Positions 742-28,803 of a stretch of 64,000 bases of DNA are shown here, one piece after another. Source of the stretch: Dictyostelium discoideum (Eukaryota); the NCBI GenBank assembly GCA_000004695.1, contig CM000154.2, forward strand, positions 2,784,001 to 2,848,000. Reading direction: 5' to 3'. The notes under the pieces were generated by a model. It ran no database searches. It saw nothing but the letters and a program-made list of their open reading frames with translations, and had not been told where the DNA came from. Each line of letters begins with the position of its first letter. The first letter of the stretch is position 1. A program made the position numbers and the translations under genes.

Positions 742-1086
742 TTAAACATTATTGCAAATATTAGAGTTATCATTATCAATATCCATTTCAGTATTTGTGG
801 GTTTTATTTGGAAATCTTTTTCTGTGATGATTGTTGAAGTGGTCGCAGTAATAGTTGTTGTTGTTGAATCAGTTATTTCATTAATATCTCCGTTATAATT
901 ATTATTACCATTGTTATTTTCACTATTTCTACCATTAATATCATCACTACTAATATCGTCATTACAAACCATCTTTGATTTTTTAAAAGGGCTTTGACTA
1001 ATTATATCATTATCGTCCTCATTATCATCCCTATCATTATCATCACCTTGTTGACTAGGTATTGCTCTTTTTACATTAAATTTATT

Positions 1087-1133
<47 letters not shown>

Positions 1134-1341
1134 GCTGATTTATGATATTACTATTAGGACTAATTATTTTATTATCCATATTTGCGGCTATATTATTATT
1201 TTTATTATTATTATTATTACTATTATCATCGTTTTCATTAATATATTCTGGTAAAGCTTTCTTTATTGAATTAAAAACGGAAAGAAGTTGATCTTCCAAG
1301 AAATTAATTTTTTCATTCATCTTCATCATTGTTTCATGCAT
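742..1341 (-). CDS. Hypothetical Q/N/D-rich low-complexity protein. The 5' end is uncertain: a GTAAGT donor on the minus strand near 1501-1506 suggests a possible upstream exon.
   Basis: ORF of 199 aa. It contains a (CAA)n/(CAG)n-encoded polyQ stretch, an N-rich stretch and an acidic D/N/E-rich region. An intron-like segment lies at about 1432-1506 on the minus strand. The ORF upstream of 1507 has no ATG before the stop of the neighbouring gene, so the start is unresolved. Confidence 0.4.
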
Positions 1342-1710
1342 TTTTGTAAGTTTATCATTTCCAAAGCTTAATGGTACAATTTCATTTTTATCCTCAACAA
1401 TAATATTATTGTTTCCACCAACACTATAACTAAAAAAAGAAAAAGAAAAAACATTAGTTAACCTTTGTAAAAAAAAAAAAAAAAAAAAATCTTATAAAAT
1501 ACTTACTATGTTATTGAACCAATATCAACAACGAAATGATTATTTAAGATTTTGAATTTTTGTGATGTTTTGTTATATTTCCTTCCTAATGGCGAATTAC
1601 AATAACTACAATAAAATAGGGAATAAATACTTTTATAAAGAAAAAAAAAAAGAAAGAAAGAGTTAATATGAAAGATAATCAATTATCTTATTAAATAAGT
1701 ATTTATATAA

Positions 1711-2037
1711 TTACCAATCAGTTTCACCTCTATAAGTTGATGGTTTTTGATCACCTAAAATTACAGATCCTCCAAGTTTTTTCATTACAAAGGTGTTTGT
1801 TAATGTCATATACATATCACACTCGTGAGATTTATTAACGATTAATGTTGAATCACCAATTGGTGTTTTACAAGATAAGCAACTAAATATTAAAATAGAA
1901 TTTATAACCTCTTCCAATGTAGGTATTTCATTAAATTGTTCCTCTATTTGTTGTTCATTATTATCTTGTTGCTCCTCTTGTTGTTGATGACGATGATGGT
2001 GGTGACGATGTGACTTTGATGATGATCGGTGTTCTTC

Positions 2038-2072
<35 letters not shown>

Positions 2073-2502
2073 GATGATGATGGTGATGATGTGACTTTGA
2101 TGCTGATCGGTGTTCTTTTTTTTTTTTTGAGCTTGAACTTGATGTTGTTGTTTGTTGCTTTTGTGGTTTTGGTGTTGTTGTTGTTGATGATGATGATGAT
2201 GATGATGATATTACTTGTGGTTGTTGTTGTTGTGGTTCTCGTTCTTGTATTGATTGTGATTCCTTGTTAATGTTTAAATTAATTGGTGAAGCTGGTGATT
2301 TTTGATTATATTGTTGAAGGAATAACTTTTTATATGATGGTGGGGGTGGTTTATATGGTGTAGTTTGTGAATTGGAATTAATGGAATCTCTAACTTCATC
2401 GTCACTATCATCTCTACTACTTTTCTTATTACTACTCTCAATAGGGTGTGAAGTTTTTTGTAAACTTTTATTTTTATCTGTTGATCCAACTTTTTTATTC
2501 AT
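1711..2502 (-). CDS. Hypothetical low-complexity protein with polyQ, polyH and S/T runs and a C-terminal Cys/His cluster
   Basis: ORF of 263 aa. Compositionally coding with codon-level repeats (CAA/CAC/TCA). The C-terminal motif is FSCLSCKTPIGDSTLIVNKSHECDMY. No confident family assignment. Confidence 0.45.
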
Positions 2503-3283: not shown

Positions 3284-4587
3284 ATGGATATGTCAAAAAA
3301 GAAAAGTAAACGTGCATCTCCAATCGAATCAAGTCAAGAGGAGATTGCCATTTCAACAAGTAAAACAGCAACTACAGAAAAACCAAAGAAAACTAAAACC
3401 ACCACCAAAAAGAAGGCATCCCAACCATCACAAGAAGTTGTTATGGAAACTGAATCAGAAGTTGAAATTACAACTACCACCACATCCACATCCACAACCA
3501 ATAATAATAATATAACTACTACATCAACATCATCTCAACAAAGTAATGGTACATTATCATCATCGTCATCACCAACAATCCAATCAATACCAACAACACC
3601 AATTTCAAAATATATACCATCTCTTTCACAAATAGGTACACCATTATCACCAAATAGAGCAGCTCAACGTCTTAGAGAAAAGGATGAATTGAGTTTAATT
3701 CATAATAGATTGAAAAGTGCATTAAAGAAATTAGAGAGCGCAGAGACTGAATTAGAAAAGAAGAATCAAGAATATGAAGAACTCGACCAAAAACATACCG
3801 CCACAATCAAACAACTCAAACAACGTTCCGACCAAGTAGAGAAACAATTGATTGAAGAACAAAATCAAAACTCTGATCTCACCTCCAATCGTAACATTTT
3901 AGAGAATGAATTAAAGAGCAAAGAAAGTGTTTGGAAAAAAGAAAAGGATGAGATTTTATTGAAATTCCAAGAATCAATCAATAAACTCAATCAAGAGAAT
4001 TCATTAGCACAATCACAACTTAAATCTGAAATCGTCTCTAAGGAATATGAAATCGATGGCTTAAAATCTGAAATCAATCGTTTAAAGGATGATTTACAAT
4101 ATCGTATTCGTGAAGGTGAAGAAAAATCTAGAAAACTTTTGGAAAATGAATACAATAGATTTAAAGGTAAAGAAGAAGAATATAATCAATTAATTGTATC
4201 AAAAGATGAAGAAATTAAAAAATATAAATTTGAATTAAAAGAAAAAGTAATTATTAAAAAAAAAAAAAAAAATATATAATAATAATAGTTTTATTAATAA
4301 AATGTTTTTTTTTTTTATATATTATTATTTAATTATTTAAATAGGAAAAATCATCAAATGCAATGAATAAAAAAGAAAATGAATTAAATAATTTAATTCA
4401 AGCTCATGAAAGACAAATTGAAGATATGAGAGATAGTATTAATAGAGAATGGGAACTTAAAGCTGCTCAAATGATGGAAGAACATCATGCTAGAACTATT
4501 CACCTTCAACAAGCTGTTGATTCATTTAATGGTATGTTTTGATAAAATATAAAAAAATTAATTATTAATTATTAATTATTAATATAT

Positions 4588-4622
<35 letters not shown>

Positions 4623-5631
4623 AAAATTTTAACAGAGGAAAAAGAAAGAATTAAATCACAAATGGAAACATTAAATGGTCAAATTGAAGATATAAATATT
4701 AAAAATAATGAATATGAAGATAGAATTAAAGAGATGAATGTTTTACTTTCACAAAAGGATAATTCAATTGGTGAACTTGGTGTTGAAATTGAAGAATCAA
4801 AGAAGAAGATGAGAAAACAAATGGCTGATTTGAAATCCAAAGATGGTCAAATTGCTTTACTTCAAATTGAAATCAATACCAAAGATAACAAATGTAATAC
4901 TTTACAAACTGAAACCAATAGACTTAAATCTGAACTTTACTCTATTACCAATCAAATCGATCCAGAAATTCCACTTGATCCAGAGATTAACTCCCTCAAA
5001 GAATTGGTTAAAGGTTTTGAAAAGACCGTTGATGATCGTAAGAGAAAGAGATCAAAACTTCAACATGAATTCAATGCTGCTGCTAATCAAGATCAAAATG
5101 GTATGACCATTGAAGAACAATCCTCTACCTCTACTACTACCACCACTTCTGCCACTGGTTCTTCATCATCAACTTCACATTTGGATAATATTGACTCTAG
5201 TAAACTTCCAACTGGTCCAGAACAATCTGAATTATTTAATCCAGATACTGTATCCTTCTCTTTAGTTGATTCAAATCAAGAGTTTATTAAACTATCAGTT
5301 CATGGCGATATGGATAATGGTCTATCAATTAGTAAATGGAGATTAATTGTTGTCAAACCAGATGGTTCTAAATCTGGTTTCTCTTTCCCAGATGGTATTC
5401 AACCATTCAAAGGTATCAAATCTGTCACCGTTTGGACTGGTCGTCCAAGACCTCAAGGTACTCCAACTGAAAATGAATTCTATTGGGCTAGAACTGAATT
5501 ATGGACAAGTCCTGTCGAAGGTACCATTGTTAAATTAGTCTCACCAAGTGAAGAAACAACAACTGTCACTTTACCTGCTGATGGTATTTATCAAAAACCT
5601 TCTTCAGCTGGTAAATCAAATTGTTTGATTA

Positions 5632-5636
<5 letters not shown>
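3284..5636 (+). CDS. lmnB: Lamin-like nucleoskeleton protein NE81. CDS join(3284..4246,4345..4531,4636..5636), 716 aa.
   Basis: N-terminal S/T-rich head with a TPLSPNR (CDK1-type SP site) immediately before a long heptad coiled-coil rod (LSLIHNRLKSALKKLESAETELEKK...). A basic KRKR NLS-like segment follows, then a lamin-tail Ig-like domain (WRLIVVKPDGSKSGFSFPDGIQPFKG...). The C-terminus is the CaaX box CLIM. Introns are GT...AG (GTAATT...ATAG and GTATGT...ACAG) and frame-preserving. The 716-aa total matches the described Dictyostelium NE81. Confidence 0.9.
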
Positions 5637-10821: not shown

Positions 10822-13698
10822 ATGAAGTTTAGAGATCTTTTAAATGATCATATTATTAGTCATTGGAGAGATAAATATATTGATTATGAATATTTAAAGG
10901 ATTTAATAGATAGAGAATATCATAATGCACCAAATTCATTAAATAATAGTATGATGATTGATATGTCACAATCAATCAATAATACAATCGCCGAACAATA
11001 TAGTGTCAATGATATTTCATCAATGGTAACCAAAGGTGGTATAAATGATTCACCAACTACAGATATTGAAGTGGATGAAACTGCAGATAGTCCAGCTATA
11101 CCTTCACCAATTATAAGTCACAGTAATATTAATAGTAATAATAATAATAATGGTGGAACAAATAGTGTTGGATTTTCTCATCTTCATAGACAATTAAATA
11201 GACAAAATAGCAATCTTAAAAATAGTAGTAATAGTATTAATTTACTTAAAGCCGATGATTCAAATAATATTGAAAAACATGTAAAATCATATTTTGATCA
11301 AAGAAATAATAACAACAATATTAATAACATCAATAACAATAATAATAATAATAGTAATAATAGTAATAATAGTAATAATAATAAAACAATTAAAAATACA
11401 AGAAATATTATAGCAGATGATGATGGTGGTAATGAAGATACTACACTTGGATCACCATTTAGTTCACCATCAATTGGATCACCACCAATGTCATCACCAT
11501 CACCAAAGATGTTAAAACAAGAATTACATTCACCATTGTTAACATCAGAAAAGGATGAAGATGAAGAGGAAGAAGGAGAAGAAGAAGAAGATATTGAAAT
11601 GGAGCAATTGGAATTGGATGATCATGATAAAAATACAACTATCAATATGACAGCCAATGGTAGTAGAGGAAATTTACGTAAAGGAATGAATCAATTTGTT
11701 AAAACAATACCGCAAAATATAAAACAATTAAATAGTCAAATTAGTAATTCATTTTTAAAATTTGGTGGTATGGTTAAAGGCGATAAAAGTAATGATAAAA
11801 ATAATGATAAAAGCAATGATAAAAATAATAATAAAAATAATAAAAATAATAATAATAATAATAATTTAAATGATGAAGATAATTTTGATATGATGACATC
11901 ACAAATTGAAAAAGTATTAAATAATAAAGATAATATGAAATTAATGGAAAGTTGTACATTTACAACTAAAGAGAATTTTCAAACAGCATTTGTTGATCAA
12001 GTTAATAAGGTTGATTCATTTTTTGTTGAAAGATATAGAAAGACCAAAGAGAAATGTGTTGAACTTTGTAATATGATTCCATTTTTATCAACAAATGAAC
12101 AATTGAGAACAATTAGAAATATTGAATTTGTAAAACAAGGATTTCAAGACAATTATCATTATTTAGAATCATTGGAAGCATTTAAAGAATTGAATATTAA
12201 AGGTTTTAAAAAGGTATTGGAAAAGTATGAAAAAAAGAATCGTATAATTTCATCAGAATGTAGAAAATATTTAGAGAATACTAGAATCTTTGAAAATGAT
12301 AGTCCAGTTAGATTTTTATCACATAGAATTAAACATTTGTATGCACGTTATTTCACTGGTAATGATGTAAAGTTGGCATCCAATCAAATTAAAACCTATG
12401 CAGAGGATGAACGTTTTCAAAAGTATAATCTATTCACAATTGGTTTACTAATTGGTGTTTGCATTGTGTTGGGAATTCAAGTTGTATTCAATTACTATTA
12501 CTATTATCCACACGAACAACCACCAATCGATTCACCATTGGCATGGTTATTATTCCGTATTTCACTGCTACCCATTCTATTGGGTACAATGTTTTCATTG
12601 ATGTCGTTTATTTGGGAAAAGAGTGGTATAAATTATGTATTCATATTCGAGTTTAAACCTGACCATAAGAGATCGCCTGGACGTTATTTAAAGTATGGTT
12701 TAATTTTCAATACACTTTGGCTGTTGGCGTTAAATCTCTATATAGATTCATCATCTCATCAAAATACAACAAGATACTTGATTCTAATTCCAATAGTTTT
12801 CGTATTGATCACTTTGATCATCGGTATTCAACCATTTCCAATAATGGCACATCGTACTCGTTTTTGGGTTTTGAAGAAGATCGTCAAGGTAGTTTCAGCT
12901 CCATGGGTGCCTGTAAGATTTCCAGATTTCTTTATGAGTGTTCAGTTGCTAAGTCTTGGTGAATTCCTTTTCAATATTCAATCAATGGTTTGTGTTTTCA
13001 ACTATAGTGCATTGGATCCTGAAGAGGTGAAATTTTGTTCACAATCCCGTTTCTTTGCTTTACCAGTTTTAAATGCCTTACCATATTGGTGGCGTGTTGC
13101 TCAATGTTTTAGACGTTATTATGAAACTCGTCAATTCTTTCCACATATTACAAGTGCAATTCGTTCAATCTTTTCAATTATTGCATTGGTTTTAAATTAT
13201 ATTGCATTGGAATATTCTCAACATGATTGGAGTATTATCAAGATAGCTTGGTTTGGTATTAATGTGGTTGGTAGCTTTTATAAATTCTATGCCGATATGT
13301 CTGTAGATTGGGGTTTCTTTAATAATTATAAAACCAATCCTGCTTGGCCATTAAGAGAGAAATTGGTTTTCAAAAAAAAATGGATCTATTATGTTGCAAT
13401 CACTTTGGATTTCTTTTTAAGATTCACTTGGTTAATCATTTTCTCAATTAGAAAAGGCTCAAAACATAGACTTGACAATCCACTCTTTTTATTCTTTTTC
13501 TCTCTAACTGAAGTGGTTTGGGCAACACAATTCATTTTCTTCCGTGTTGAATCTGAACATGTTCAATCTCCAGATACCTATAGTTCTTTCCAAGATATTC
13601 CAATTCCATTCTCTCAAGAATATAATAATTATATGGATGAAAAGAAAAAAAGAAGAAAAAGAAAACAAAAACAATCAAAAAGCAATAATAACAACAAC

Positions 13699-13731
<33 letters not shown>

Positions 13732-14064
13732 CGTCTTCATCATAATGATAGTAGTAATAATGTTGAAACTGATGAAACTATTACTTCTTCAAATAATACT
13801 GATAGTAGTCATCAAAAACAACCTCTAACTCATAATCGTCATCATAATCATAATCATAATCATCAAGATCATCATGATCTTTCTATTAATGATCATATGA
13901 ATCCTGATACTGGTGATATTAATTTCGATTCAAAAATCGATTATAAAGATGATGAAGCTTATAATTTAAGACAATCATCACTACGTACTTCAATTTCTCG
14001 TAATGCTTCCCATGTAGATTTAGGTCGTGTTTCTTCTCATAATGATTTAAATATAAGTAGAGGT

Positions 14065-14067
<3 letters not shown>
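10822..14067 (+). CDS. SPX and EXS domain-containing protein (XPR1/PHO1-like phosphate exporter family), single exon, 1081 aa
   Basis: N-terminal SPX signature MKFRDLLNDHIISHWRDKYIDYEYLKDLI. Multiple TM helices follow. The C-terminal EXS-type region is (..ALPYWWRVAQCFRRYYETRQFFPH...WGFFNNYKTNPAWPLREKLVF..FFLRFTWL..). There are large N/S-rich insertions and a His-rich tail. The uninterrupted ORF is flanked by poly(A) and poly(T) tracts. Confidence 0.8.

Positions 14068-27195: not shown

Positions 27196-28803
<1,608 letters not shown>

What the first reader, a model, noticed from the sequence alone, without database searches (positions are those of the whole stretch)
3284..5636. NE81 lamin-like gene fully reconstructed (716 aa) with CDK1 site, rod, NLS, lamin-tail fold and CLIM CaaX box
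Three exons join to exactly 716 codons. The head contains TPLSPNR just before coil 1A, analogous to the mitotic CDK1 site of lamins. The rod is a continuous heptad repeat of about 370 aa. The tail has a lamin-tail/Ig-like region and ends in CLIM. This is a rare non-metazoan lamin, and the sequence here lets one check every hallmark directly.
Basis: partly seen in the sequence, partly recalled or inferred. Interest (0 to 1): 0.5.

Follow-up and report, generated by a model that had tools for sequence, protein, structure and literature searches.

The report
Dictyostelium lamin gene NE81, known

Summary
Window 3284..5636 (+) carries a three-exon gene (3284-4246, 4345-4531, 4636-5636; two GT..AG introns of 4-5% G+C). 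It splices to 2151 nt, or 716 codons plus TAA. The product is identical, residue for residue, to XP_636248.1 / UniProt Q54HI5 / DDB_G0289429, the "lamin-like protein" NE81 of D. discoideum AX4.

The listed hallmarks are present and conserved in dictyostelid orthologues:
- TPLSPNR at aa 119-125, where S122 is the only full CDK1 consensus site in the protein.
- A proline-free helical rod at aa 123-490.
- KRKR at aa 519-522.
- A nine-strand beta domain at aa 588-703.
- CLIM at aa 713-716.

Two corrections apply. The rod is not a continuous heptad repeat, because register shifts recur at the same places in 12 orthologues.

NE81's localisation, CaaX dependence, S122 regulation and filament assembly were published between 2012 and 2025. 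Novelty: already known. Interest: low.

The parts
3284..4246 (+). Exon 1 (963 nt, codons 1-321): head domain and the first half of the rod
   Evidence: ORF from the ATG at 3284. GT donor at 4247. The product matches Q54HI5 exactly.
4247..4344 (+). Intron 1 (98 nt, GTAATT...AG, 4.1% G+C, phase 0), lying between codons 321 and 322
   Evidence: A 1-nt poly-T length difference at window 4305 is the only difference from assembly GCA_054883475.1 within the gene.
4345..4531 (+). Exon 2 (187 nt, codons 322 to the first base of 384)
4532..4635 (+). Intron 2 (104 nt, GTATGT...AG, 4.8% G+C, phase 1)
4636..5636 (+). Exon 3 (1001 nt including the TAA stop at 5634-5636): second half of the rod, NLS, lamin tail domain and CaaX box
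3284..3649 (+). Head domain, aa 1-122: S/T/K-rich (S 21%, T 21%, K 11%) and predicted disordered
   Evidence: AF2 pLDDT is below 50 for residues 1-122. Composition.
3638..3658 (+). TPLSPNR, aa 119-125. S122 in SPNR is the CDK1 consensus site immediately before the rod.
   Evidence: It is the only [ST]P.[KR] site in the protein. T119, P120, S122, P123 and R125 are invariant in 9 orthologues. It aligns to prelamin A 'STPLSPTR'. S122 regulation is reported in PMC7464662.
3650..4955 (+). Alpha-helical coiled-coil rod, aa 123-490 (368 aa; the span includes both introns)
   Evidence: AF2 helices 123-321 and 328-490. The heptad scan is positive over 124-492. No proline between residues 124 and 492. 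Conserved register shifts.
4956..5045 (+). Proline-containing kink (aa 491-499, DPEIPLDPE) and short helix (aa 500-520). This is the counterpart of the IF consensus at the end of coil 2B.
   Evidence: AF2. hhalign places NE81 'DPEIPLDPEINSLKELV' against 'DVKISLQAEIDKYRSIL' of the lamin-like protein P0022.
5040..5051 (+). KRKR, aa 519-522: basic nuclear localisation signal
   Evidence: Invariant in 9 orthologues. Aligned to RKKKR of P0022. Named as the NLS in PMC3258179.
5247..5594 (+). Lamin tail domain (Ig-like beta sandwich), aa 588-703
5622..5633 (+). CLIM, aa 713-716: the CaaX box that signals farnesylation
   Evidence: C713, I715 and M716 are invariant in 12 orthologues. Deleting CLIM abolishes nuclear-envelope localisation (PMC3258179).

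Best explanation
This is the D. discoideum gene for NE81 (DDB_G0289429, UniProt Q54HI5), a B-type-like nuclear lamin.

Shown here from sequence and models:
- It is a three-exon gene encoding 716 aa (81.3 kDa).
- The protein has a disordered S/T-rich head that ends in a single CDK1 consensus site (S122).
- A rod of about 368 aa follows, proline-free and coiled-coil-forming, with conserved heptad discontinuities.
- After the rod come a proline kink and a short helix that correspond to the end of IF coil 2B.
- The tail carries a KRKR basic signal, a disordered spacer, a lamin-tail (Ig-like) domain and a C-terminal CLIM box.

Mechanism, taken from the published experiments and from established lamin biology, not tested here:
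- The rod dimerises, and the dimers assemble into filaments.
- KRKR drives nuclear import.
- CLIM is farnesylated, which anchors the protein to the inner nuclear membrane so that assembly proceeds in two dimensions as a lamina.
- CDK1 phosphorylation of S122 at the onset of mitosis loosens the assembly.
- The lamina provides nuclear integrity, chromatin organisation and mechanical stability.
For: Identity:
- The spliced product matches XP_636248.1 / Q54HI5 exactly.
- The same gene range is called in GCA_054883475.1, with identical exons.

Architecture:
- The full-length AF2 model is disordered over 1-122. It has helices 123-321, 328-490 and 500-520, and a beta domain at 588-703.
- The heptad scan is positive over 124-492.
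- The calculated mass is 81.3 kDa.

Head and start of the rod:
- The best PDB sequence match is the prelamin A coil 1A fragment 6yf5. It aligns NE81 118-157 with [25 protein letters not shown] (E 0.34 for the single sequence, 0.033 for the profile).

Tail:
- The AF2 tail model has pLDDT 80.2 and pTM 0.73.
- The top 14 of 855 Foldseek PDB matches are all lamin A/C, B1 or B2 Ig-like domains (E 5e-5 to 1.7e-3). The next hit has E 0.012.
- An HMM of the tail, searched against 1.84 billion proteins, reaches proteins that carry Pfam LTD (E 3e-12 to 4e-4).
- hhalign of the tail against those LTD segments gives 97.4% probability and E 1.3e-11.
- Full-length NE81 aligns collinearly with P0022 across the coil 2B end, NLS and LTD (97.8%, E 7.5e-13). 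P0022 in turn matches human lamin Ig domains at E 5e-11.

Conservation:
- The CDK site, KRKR and the CaaX box are invariant in 9 orthologues. The CaaX residues are also invariant in the 12-sequence set.

Function, from the literature:
- PMC3258179: inner nuclear envelope localisation, the CaaX requirement, and knockout and overexpression phenotypes.
- PMC6406624: filament assembly in vitro and in Xenopus oocytes.
- PMC7464662: S122 and CDK1.
- PMC10881167: partial rescue of lamin A/C-deficient mouse fibroblasts.
Against: - The Pfam Filament (PF00038) and LTD (PF00932) models do not match NE81 at E<=10. No orthologue matches LTD at E<=1, and only one matches Filament, weakly (E 0.0074, well below the gathering score).
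- HMM searches of PDB sequences with the tail profile find no lamin chain at E<=10.
- The coil 1A similarity to lamin A is not statistically significant on its own.
- The end of the rod carries three prolines where IF proteins have the YRKLLEGEE helix.
- The LTD segments used were chosen from hits of the NE81 profile itself, so that E-value is somewhat optimistic.
- AlphaFold was trained on PDB lamin structures, so the fold match is not fully independent evidence.
- Farnesylation, phosphorylation and import were not tested here.
Confidence: 0.97

Rival explanations
1. NE81 is a convergent lamin analogue. On this view it is a generic long coiled-coil protein that acquired a CaaX box and a nuclear signal on its own, as with Drosophila kugelkern or the plant NMCP/CRWN proteins, and it is not homologous to metazoan lamins.
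For: - No Pfam Filament or LTD hit.
- Rod matches in the PDB are ordinary coiled coils such as reovirus sigma-1, myosin and adhesins.
- The 2012 authors themselves preferred the term 'IF-like' and noted that the coil 1A and 2B signatures are missing.
Against: - The tail is an LTD both by fold and by profile homology.
- The order CDK site, rod, coil 2B-end motif, NLS, LTD, CaaX is collinear with that of lamins.
- The sequence around the CDK site matches lamin A residue by residue.
- Kollmar 2015 places the amoebozoan sequences within the lamin family.
Confidence: 0.03
2. The true transcript uses other splice sites, giving a product of 710 or 713 aa rather than 716.
For: Three other GT..AG combinations also keep the frame open.
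Against: - Only the 716-aa model is identical to the deposited protein.
- The 2012 paper states that the Dictyostelium sequence was deduced from cDNA and has 716 residues.
- The residues around both junctions are conserved in orthologues from other species.
Confidence: 0.02

Closest known systems
NE81 (lamin-like protein, DDB_G0289429, UniProt Q54HI5) of Dictyostelium discoideum AX4
   Same: Identical over all 716 residues. The gene range and exons are the same as in a public D. discoideum assembly.
   Different: Nothing differs in the coding sequence. There is a 1-nt poly-T length difference in intron 1 relative to GCA_054883475.1. Other D. discoideum isolates encode 718-720-aa variants at 98% identity, and the extra residues fall in the T/N-rich head and the S/T-rich tail spacer.
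Metazoan B-type lamins (human lamin B1, B2)
   Same: - Head, rod and tail layout.
- A CDK1 site directly before coil 1A.
- A rod of about 350-370 aa.
- A basic NLS after the rod.
- A CaaX box ending in M, the farnesylation type.

Supporting calls: 9, 10, 25, 35, 40.
   Different: - Sequence identity in the aligned tail is only 14-22%.
- The Pfam Filament and LTD models do not detect NE81.
- The head is long, at 122 aa.
- The end of coil 2B carries three prolines in place of the YRKLLEGEE helix.
- The linker pattern is not that of canonical IF proteins.
- The spacer between the NLS and the LTD is long and S/T-rich (about 65 aa).
Non-metazoan lamins described by Kollmar 2015, and P0022 (a 408-aa protein of unknown source with Filament, NLS, LTD and CHIM)
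   Same: NE81 residues 449-687 align collinearly with it across the coil 2B end, NLS and LTD. Both end in a CaaX box with M in the last position.
   Different: P0022 keeps a recognisable IF consensus ('EIDKYRSILDVEEARL'). It also matches human lamin Ig domains directly by sequence (E 5e-11), which NE81 does not.

Membership tests
NE81 / DDB_G0289429 (the specific gene) | Amino-acid sequence identical to the deposited protein | tested here: met
   An exact-sequence look-up returns EAL62742.1, XP_636248.1 and UniRef100_Q54HI5.
Nuclear lamins (type V intermediate filament proteins) | Tripartite layout: a non-helical head, a central alpha-helical coiled-coil rod of about 350-370 aa, and a tail | tested here: met
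   In the AF2 model the head (1-122) is disordered and helices span 123-490. The heptad scan is positive over 124-492. No proline lies between residues 124 and 492.
Nuclear lamins (type V intermediate filament proteins) | IF rod sequence signature: the Pfam Filament PF00038 model, the conserved start of coil 1A, and the YRKLLEGEE end of coil 2B | tested here: inconclusive
   NE81 has no PF00038 hit at E<=10, and one orthologue hits at E 0.0074, below the cut-off. The start of coil 1A aligns to prelamin A but only at E 0.033-0.34. The coil 2B end is alignable by hhalign but contains three prolines. The 2012 paper also calls these signatures weak or missing.
Nuclear lamins (type V intermediate filament proteins) | CDK1 consensus site (S/T-P-x-K/R) directly flanking the N-terminal end of the rod | tested here: met
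   SPNR at S122, one residue before the helix begins, is the only full consensus site in the protein. It is invariant in 9 orthologues. Phosphorylation itself was not testable here; it is reported in PMC7464662.
Nuclear lamins (type V intermediate filament proteins) | Basic nuclear localisation signal between the rod and the tail domain | tested here: met
   RKRKR at 518-522. K519, R520, K521 and R522 are invariant in 9 orthologues. It aligns to RKKKR of P0022. Import function comes from the literature only.
Nuclear lamins (type V intermediate filament proteins) | Lamin tail domain (LTD, Ig-like beta sandwich) | tested here: met
Nuclear lamins (type V intermediate filament proteins) | C-terminal CaaX box (B-type and prelamin A) | tested here: met
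   CLIM at 713-716 is followed by the stop codon. C713, I715 and M716 are invariant in 12 orthologues.
Nuclear lamins (type V intermediate filament proteins) | Localisation at the inner nuclear membrane and assembly into filaments or a lamina | not testable with these tools
   Reported experimentally in PMC3258179 (immuno-EM, FRAP, the CLIM deletion mutant) and PMC6406624 (filaments in vitro and in Xenopus oocytes).

The most novel reading that the evidence does not exclude
The dictyostelid lamin rod may be built differently from the metazoan IF rod in ways that are conserved and could affect assembly. I saw three such features. Heptad register shifts recur at the same positions in 12 orthologues; one, at residue 286, lies inside an invariant 'SRKLLENEY' block that resembles the IF consensus YRKLLEGEE but sits in mid-rod. 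A triple-proline kink replaces the helical end of coil 2B. Intron 1 falls exactly at the only predicted helix gap (aa 321/322). If real, these features would suggest a different head-to-tail overlap geometry in an early-branching lamin. I did not find them singled out in the passages I read, although the 2012 paper notes that the signatures are weak.
Probability: 0.1. Interest if true: 0.3.

Novelty: already known. Interest (0 to 1): 0.08.

Why it matters
NE81 matters biologically. It was the first lamin characterised outside animals, and it supports an early eukaryotic origin of the nuclear lamina. All of this has been published since 2012: the gene, its motifs, localisation, CaaX dependence, S122 regulation, filament assembly and heterologous rescue.

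What this check adds is small:
- A quantitative demonstration that the tail is a true lamin tail domain, even though Pfam's profile misses it.
- The point that the rod is segmented rather than a continuous heptad repeat.

Tried and rejected
- Pfam scans of NE81 and of all 9 orthologues found no LTD hit and no significant Filament hit.
- phmmer and hmmsearch against PDB sequences, using the full protein, the full-length profile and the tail profile, gave only non-significant or generic coiled-coil hits. No lamin Ig domain appeared.
- The word-indexed homologue search returned only 8 dictyostelid proteins. The exhaustive HMM search was needed to get beyond them.
- Alternative splice models of 710 and 713 aa were enumerated and rejected, because only the 716-aa model matches the deposited, cDNA-based protein.
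- A tRNA scan of the window found nothing.
- My heptad scoring is a home-made a/d-hydrophobicity scheme, not COILS or MARCOIL. I use it only for the extent of the rod and for recurrent register breaks, not for probabilities.
- I considered aligning a human lamin sequence recalled from memory. I did not, because P0022 and the PDB hits gave a tool-based bridge instead.

Full report
**What is in the sequence.** Window 3284..5636 on the + strand begins with an ATG and ends with TAA. The region contains two long ORFs (3284-4279 and 4662-5636) and a short one (4363-4542) in different frames. I enumerated every GT..AG pair that restores a single open frame. Four models result, of 710, 716, 713 and 713 aa. 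The 716-aa model has exons 3284-4246, 4345-4531 and 4636-5636, giving 963+187+1001 = 2151 nt. It uses donors GTAATT and GTATGT. Exons are 31.7% G+C, the two introns are 4.1% and 4.8%, and the flanks are 11-14%. This is the usual contrast in Dictyostelium, and the window as a whole is 23% G+C.

**Identity.** An exact-sequence look-up finds the 716-aa product as EAL62742.1 / XP_636248.1 / UniRef100_Q54HI5, 'Lamin-like protein', DDB_G0289429, D. discoideum AX4. The same gene is called on a 5.29-Mb contig of GCA_054883475.1. Across the gene, the window differs from that assembly only by one T in the poly-T run of intron 1 at position 4305. Over 8.4 kb the two sequences are 99.5% identical. Kruger et al. 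2012 state that NE81 has 716 residues, deduced from cDNA (PMC3258179). The calculated mass is 81.3 kDa, which matches the name.

**Hallmarks, one by one.**

1. **CDK1 site.** TPLSPNR lies at aa 119-125. S122 in SPNR is the only [ST]-P-x-[KR] site in the whole protein. T119, P120, S122, P123 and R125 are invariant in nine dictyostelid orthologues. The best sequence match in the whole PDB, though not significant (E 0.34, or 0.033 with the profile), is the coil 1A fragment of human prelamin A. It aligns 'GTPLSPNRAAQRLREKDELSLIHNRL' with '[25 protein letters not shown]', that is, with the lamin A S22 site.

2. **Rod.** The full-length AlphaFold model built on the orthologue alignment has a disordered head (1-122). 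Helices follow at 123-321 and 328-490, separated by a low-confidence gap at 322-327. A break then occurs at 491-499, followed by a short helix at 500-520.
   - A home-made heptad scan is above the 95% shuffle threshold over 124-214 and 218-492.
   - There is no proline between residues 124 and 492.
   - 'About 370 aa' is therefore right. 'Continuous' is not. A Viterbi register assignment finds shifts near residues 133, 174, 225, 245, 286 and 355, at equivalent positions across 12 orthologues. The shift at 286 is present in all twelve.
   - The 2012 paper likewise had to introduce linkers, and it noted that the IF signatures are weak.

3. **NLS.** KRKR lies at 519-522, within RKRKR. It is invariant in nine orthologues.

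4. **Tail.** The sequence profiles fail here. Pfam LTD and Filament give nothing for NE81 at E<=10, and no orthologue reaches LTD at E<=1. An HMM of the tail finds no lamin chain among PDB sequences. Structure and deeper profile searches succeed.
   - The AlphaFold model of residues 575-716 has mean pLDDT 80.2, pTM 0.73 and nine strands.
   - Its top 14 Foldseek matches in the PDB are all lamin A/C, B1 or B2 Ig-like domains (E 5e-5 to 1.7e-3, probability 1.00). The next hit drops to E 0.012.
   - An HMM of the tail, searched against 1.84 billion representative proteins, recovers further NE81 orthologues. It then reaches proteins that Pfam scores as LTD at E 1e-16 to 7e-68.
   - hhalign of the tail against those LTD segments gives 97.4% probability and E 1.3e-11.
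   - One of these hits, P0022, carries a Filament match below Pfam's cut-off, an NLS, an LTD and a C-terminal CHIM. It matches human lamin Ig domains at E 5e-11 and vimentin coil 2B at 7.5e-4.
   - NE81 residues 449-687 align collinearly with P0022 (97.8%, E 7.5e-13). The alignment places 'DPEIPLDPEINSLKELV' opposite 'DVKISLQAEIDKYRSIL', the IF consensus at the end of coil 2B.

5. **CaaX box.** CLIM lies at 713-716, directly before the stop codon. C713, I715 and M716 are invariant in 12 orthologues.

**How it works.** The sequence shows the parts. The mechanism comes from published experiments.
- NE81 sits at the inner nuclear envelope.
- Deleting CLIM sends it into intranuclear clusters that dissolve in mitosis.
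- Knockout and overexpression disturb nuclear integrity, chromatin organisation and mechanical stability (PMC3258179).
- Purified NE81 forms filaments in vitro and lamin-like assemblies in Xenopus oocytes (PMC6406624).
- Disassembly is regulated through CDK1 phosphorylation of S122 (PMC7464662; review PMC11816917).
- NE81 partly rescues lamin A/C-deficient mouse fibroblasts (PMC10881167).

The inferred sequence of events is standard lamin biology: rod dimerisation and filament assembly, import through KRKR, farnesyl anchoring through CLIM, and mitotic loosening through S122.

**Rivals.** A convergent, non-homologous coiled-coil protein is unlikely, given the homology of the tail to LTDs and the collinear order of the motifs. 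Alternative splice models do not match the deposited protein.

**Comparison and novelty.** This is the known gene itself. Relative to metazoan B-type lamins it shares the complete architecture but very little sequence. It escapes Pfam's two lamin models. It has a long head, a proline-kinked coil 2B end, and a long S/T-rich spacer before the LTD. 'Rare non-metazoan lamin' matches how the protein was first described in 2012. Kollmar 2015 reported lamins in other opisthokonts, oomycetes and Rhizaria (PMC4448529).

**Verdict.** The finding is already known and of low interest as a discovery.

Noticed in passing
window 4246/4345 (codons 321/322): Intron 1 (phase 0) falls exactly where the full-length AlphaFold model has its only gap inside the rod helix: residues 322-327, with pLDDT below 50 at 320-326. 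My heptad scan does not lose register there, so it is unclear whether this is a true L12-like linker.
   Followed up: partly
window 4127-4153 (aa 282-290, SRKLLENEY): This mid-rod block is almost fully conserved: K281, R283, K284, L285, L286, N288, E289 and Y290 are invariant in 9 orthologues. It resembles the IF consensus YRKLLEGEE, which normally ends coil 2B. A heptad register shift is called at residue 286 in all 12 orthologues. It may be chance in a K/E/L-rich coil.
   Followed up: no
window 4956-5030 (aa 491-515): The segment that hhalign aligns to the coil 2B end consensus of a lamin-like protein carries prolines at 493, 496 and 499 (DPEIPLDPE). P493 is nearly invariant in 12 orthologues. 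The helix is therefore predicted to break just where IF proteins have their most conserved helix.
   Followed up: partly
P0017, P0019 (hits): Outside the dictyostelids, the strongest hits of the NE81 tail profile are not lamins. They are proteins made of tandem LTD repeats: P0017 has 3 LTDs (E 3e-12) and P0019 has 6 LTDs plus a plastocyanin-like domain (E 1.5e-7). Their source organisms are unknown, because the library carries no names.
   Followed up: no
P0016: A 1789-aa protein has an NE81-like tail domain at residues 594-708, followed by a full ABC-transporter architecture. Most likely two neighbouring genes were fused in a gene prediction from another species.
   Followed up: no
window 27202-28803 (+): A single ORF of 533 aa made of seven head-to-tail ubiquitin units, that is, a polyubiquitin gene.
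   Followed up: no
window 742-2502 (-) and 10822-14067 (+): The upstream neighbour on the minus strand is called as one 491-aa gene in the public assembly and has a Yippee/Mis18 zinc-binding domain at its C-terminal end. Further downstream lies a 1081-aa SPX-EXS protein of the phosphate-transporter type. The gene called immediately downstream of NE81 carries a PA14 domain.
   Followed up: no
window 3284-3649 and 4305: Other D. discoideum isolates encode 718-720-aa versions of NE81 at 98% identity. In the one aligned (P0002, 719 aa), the extra residues lie in T/N runs of the head and in the S/T-rich spacer of the tail. The only DNA difference from GCA_054883475.1 within the gene is a 1-nt change in a poly-T run of intron 1. 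These are homopolymer and low-complexity length polymorphisms, or assembly noise.
   Followed up: partly
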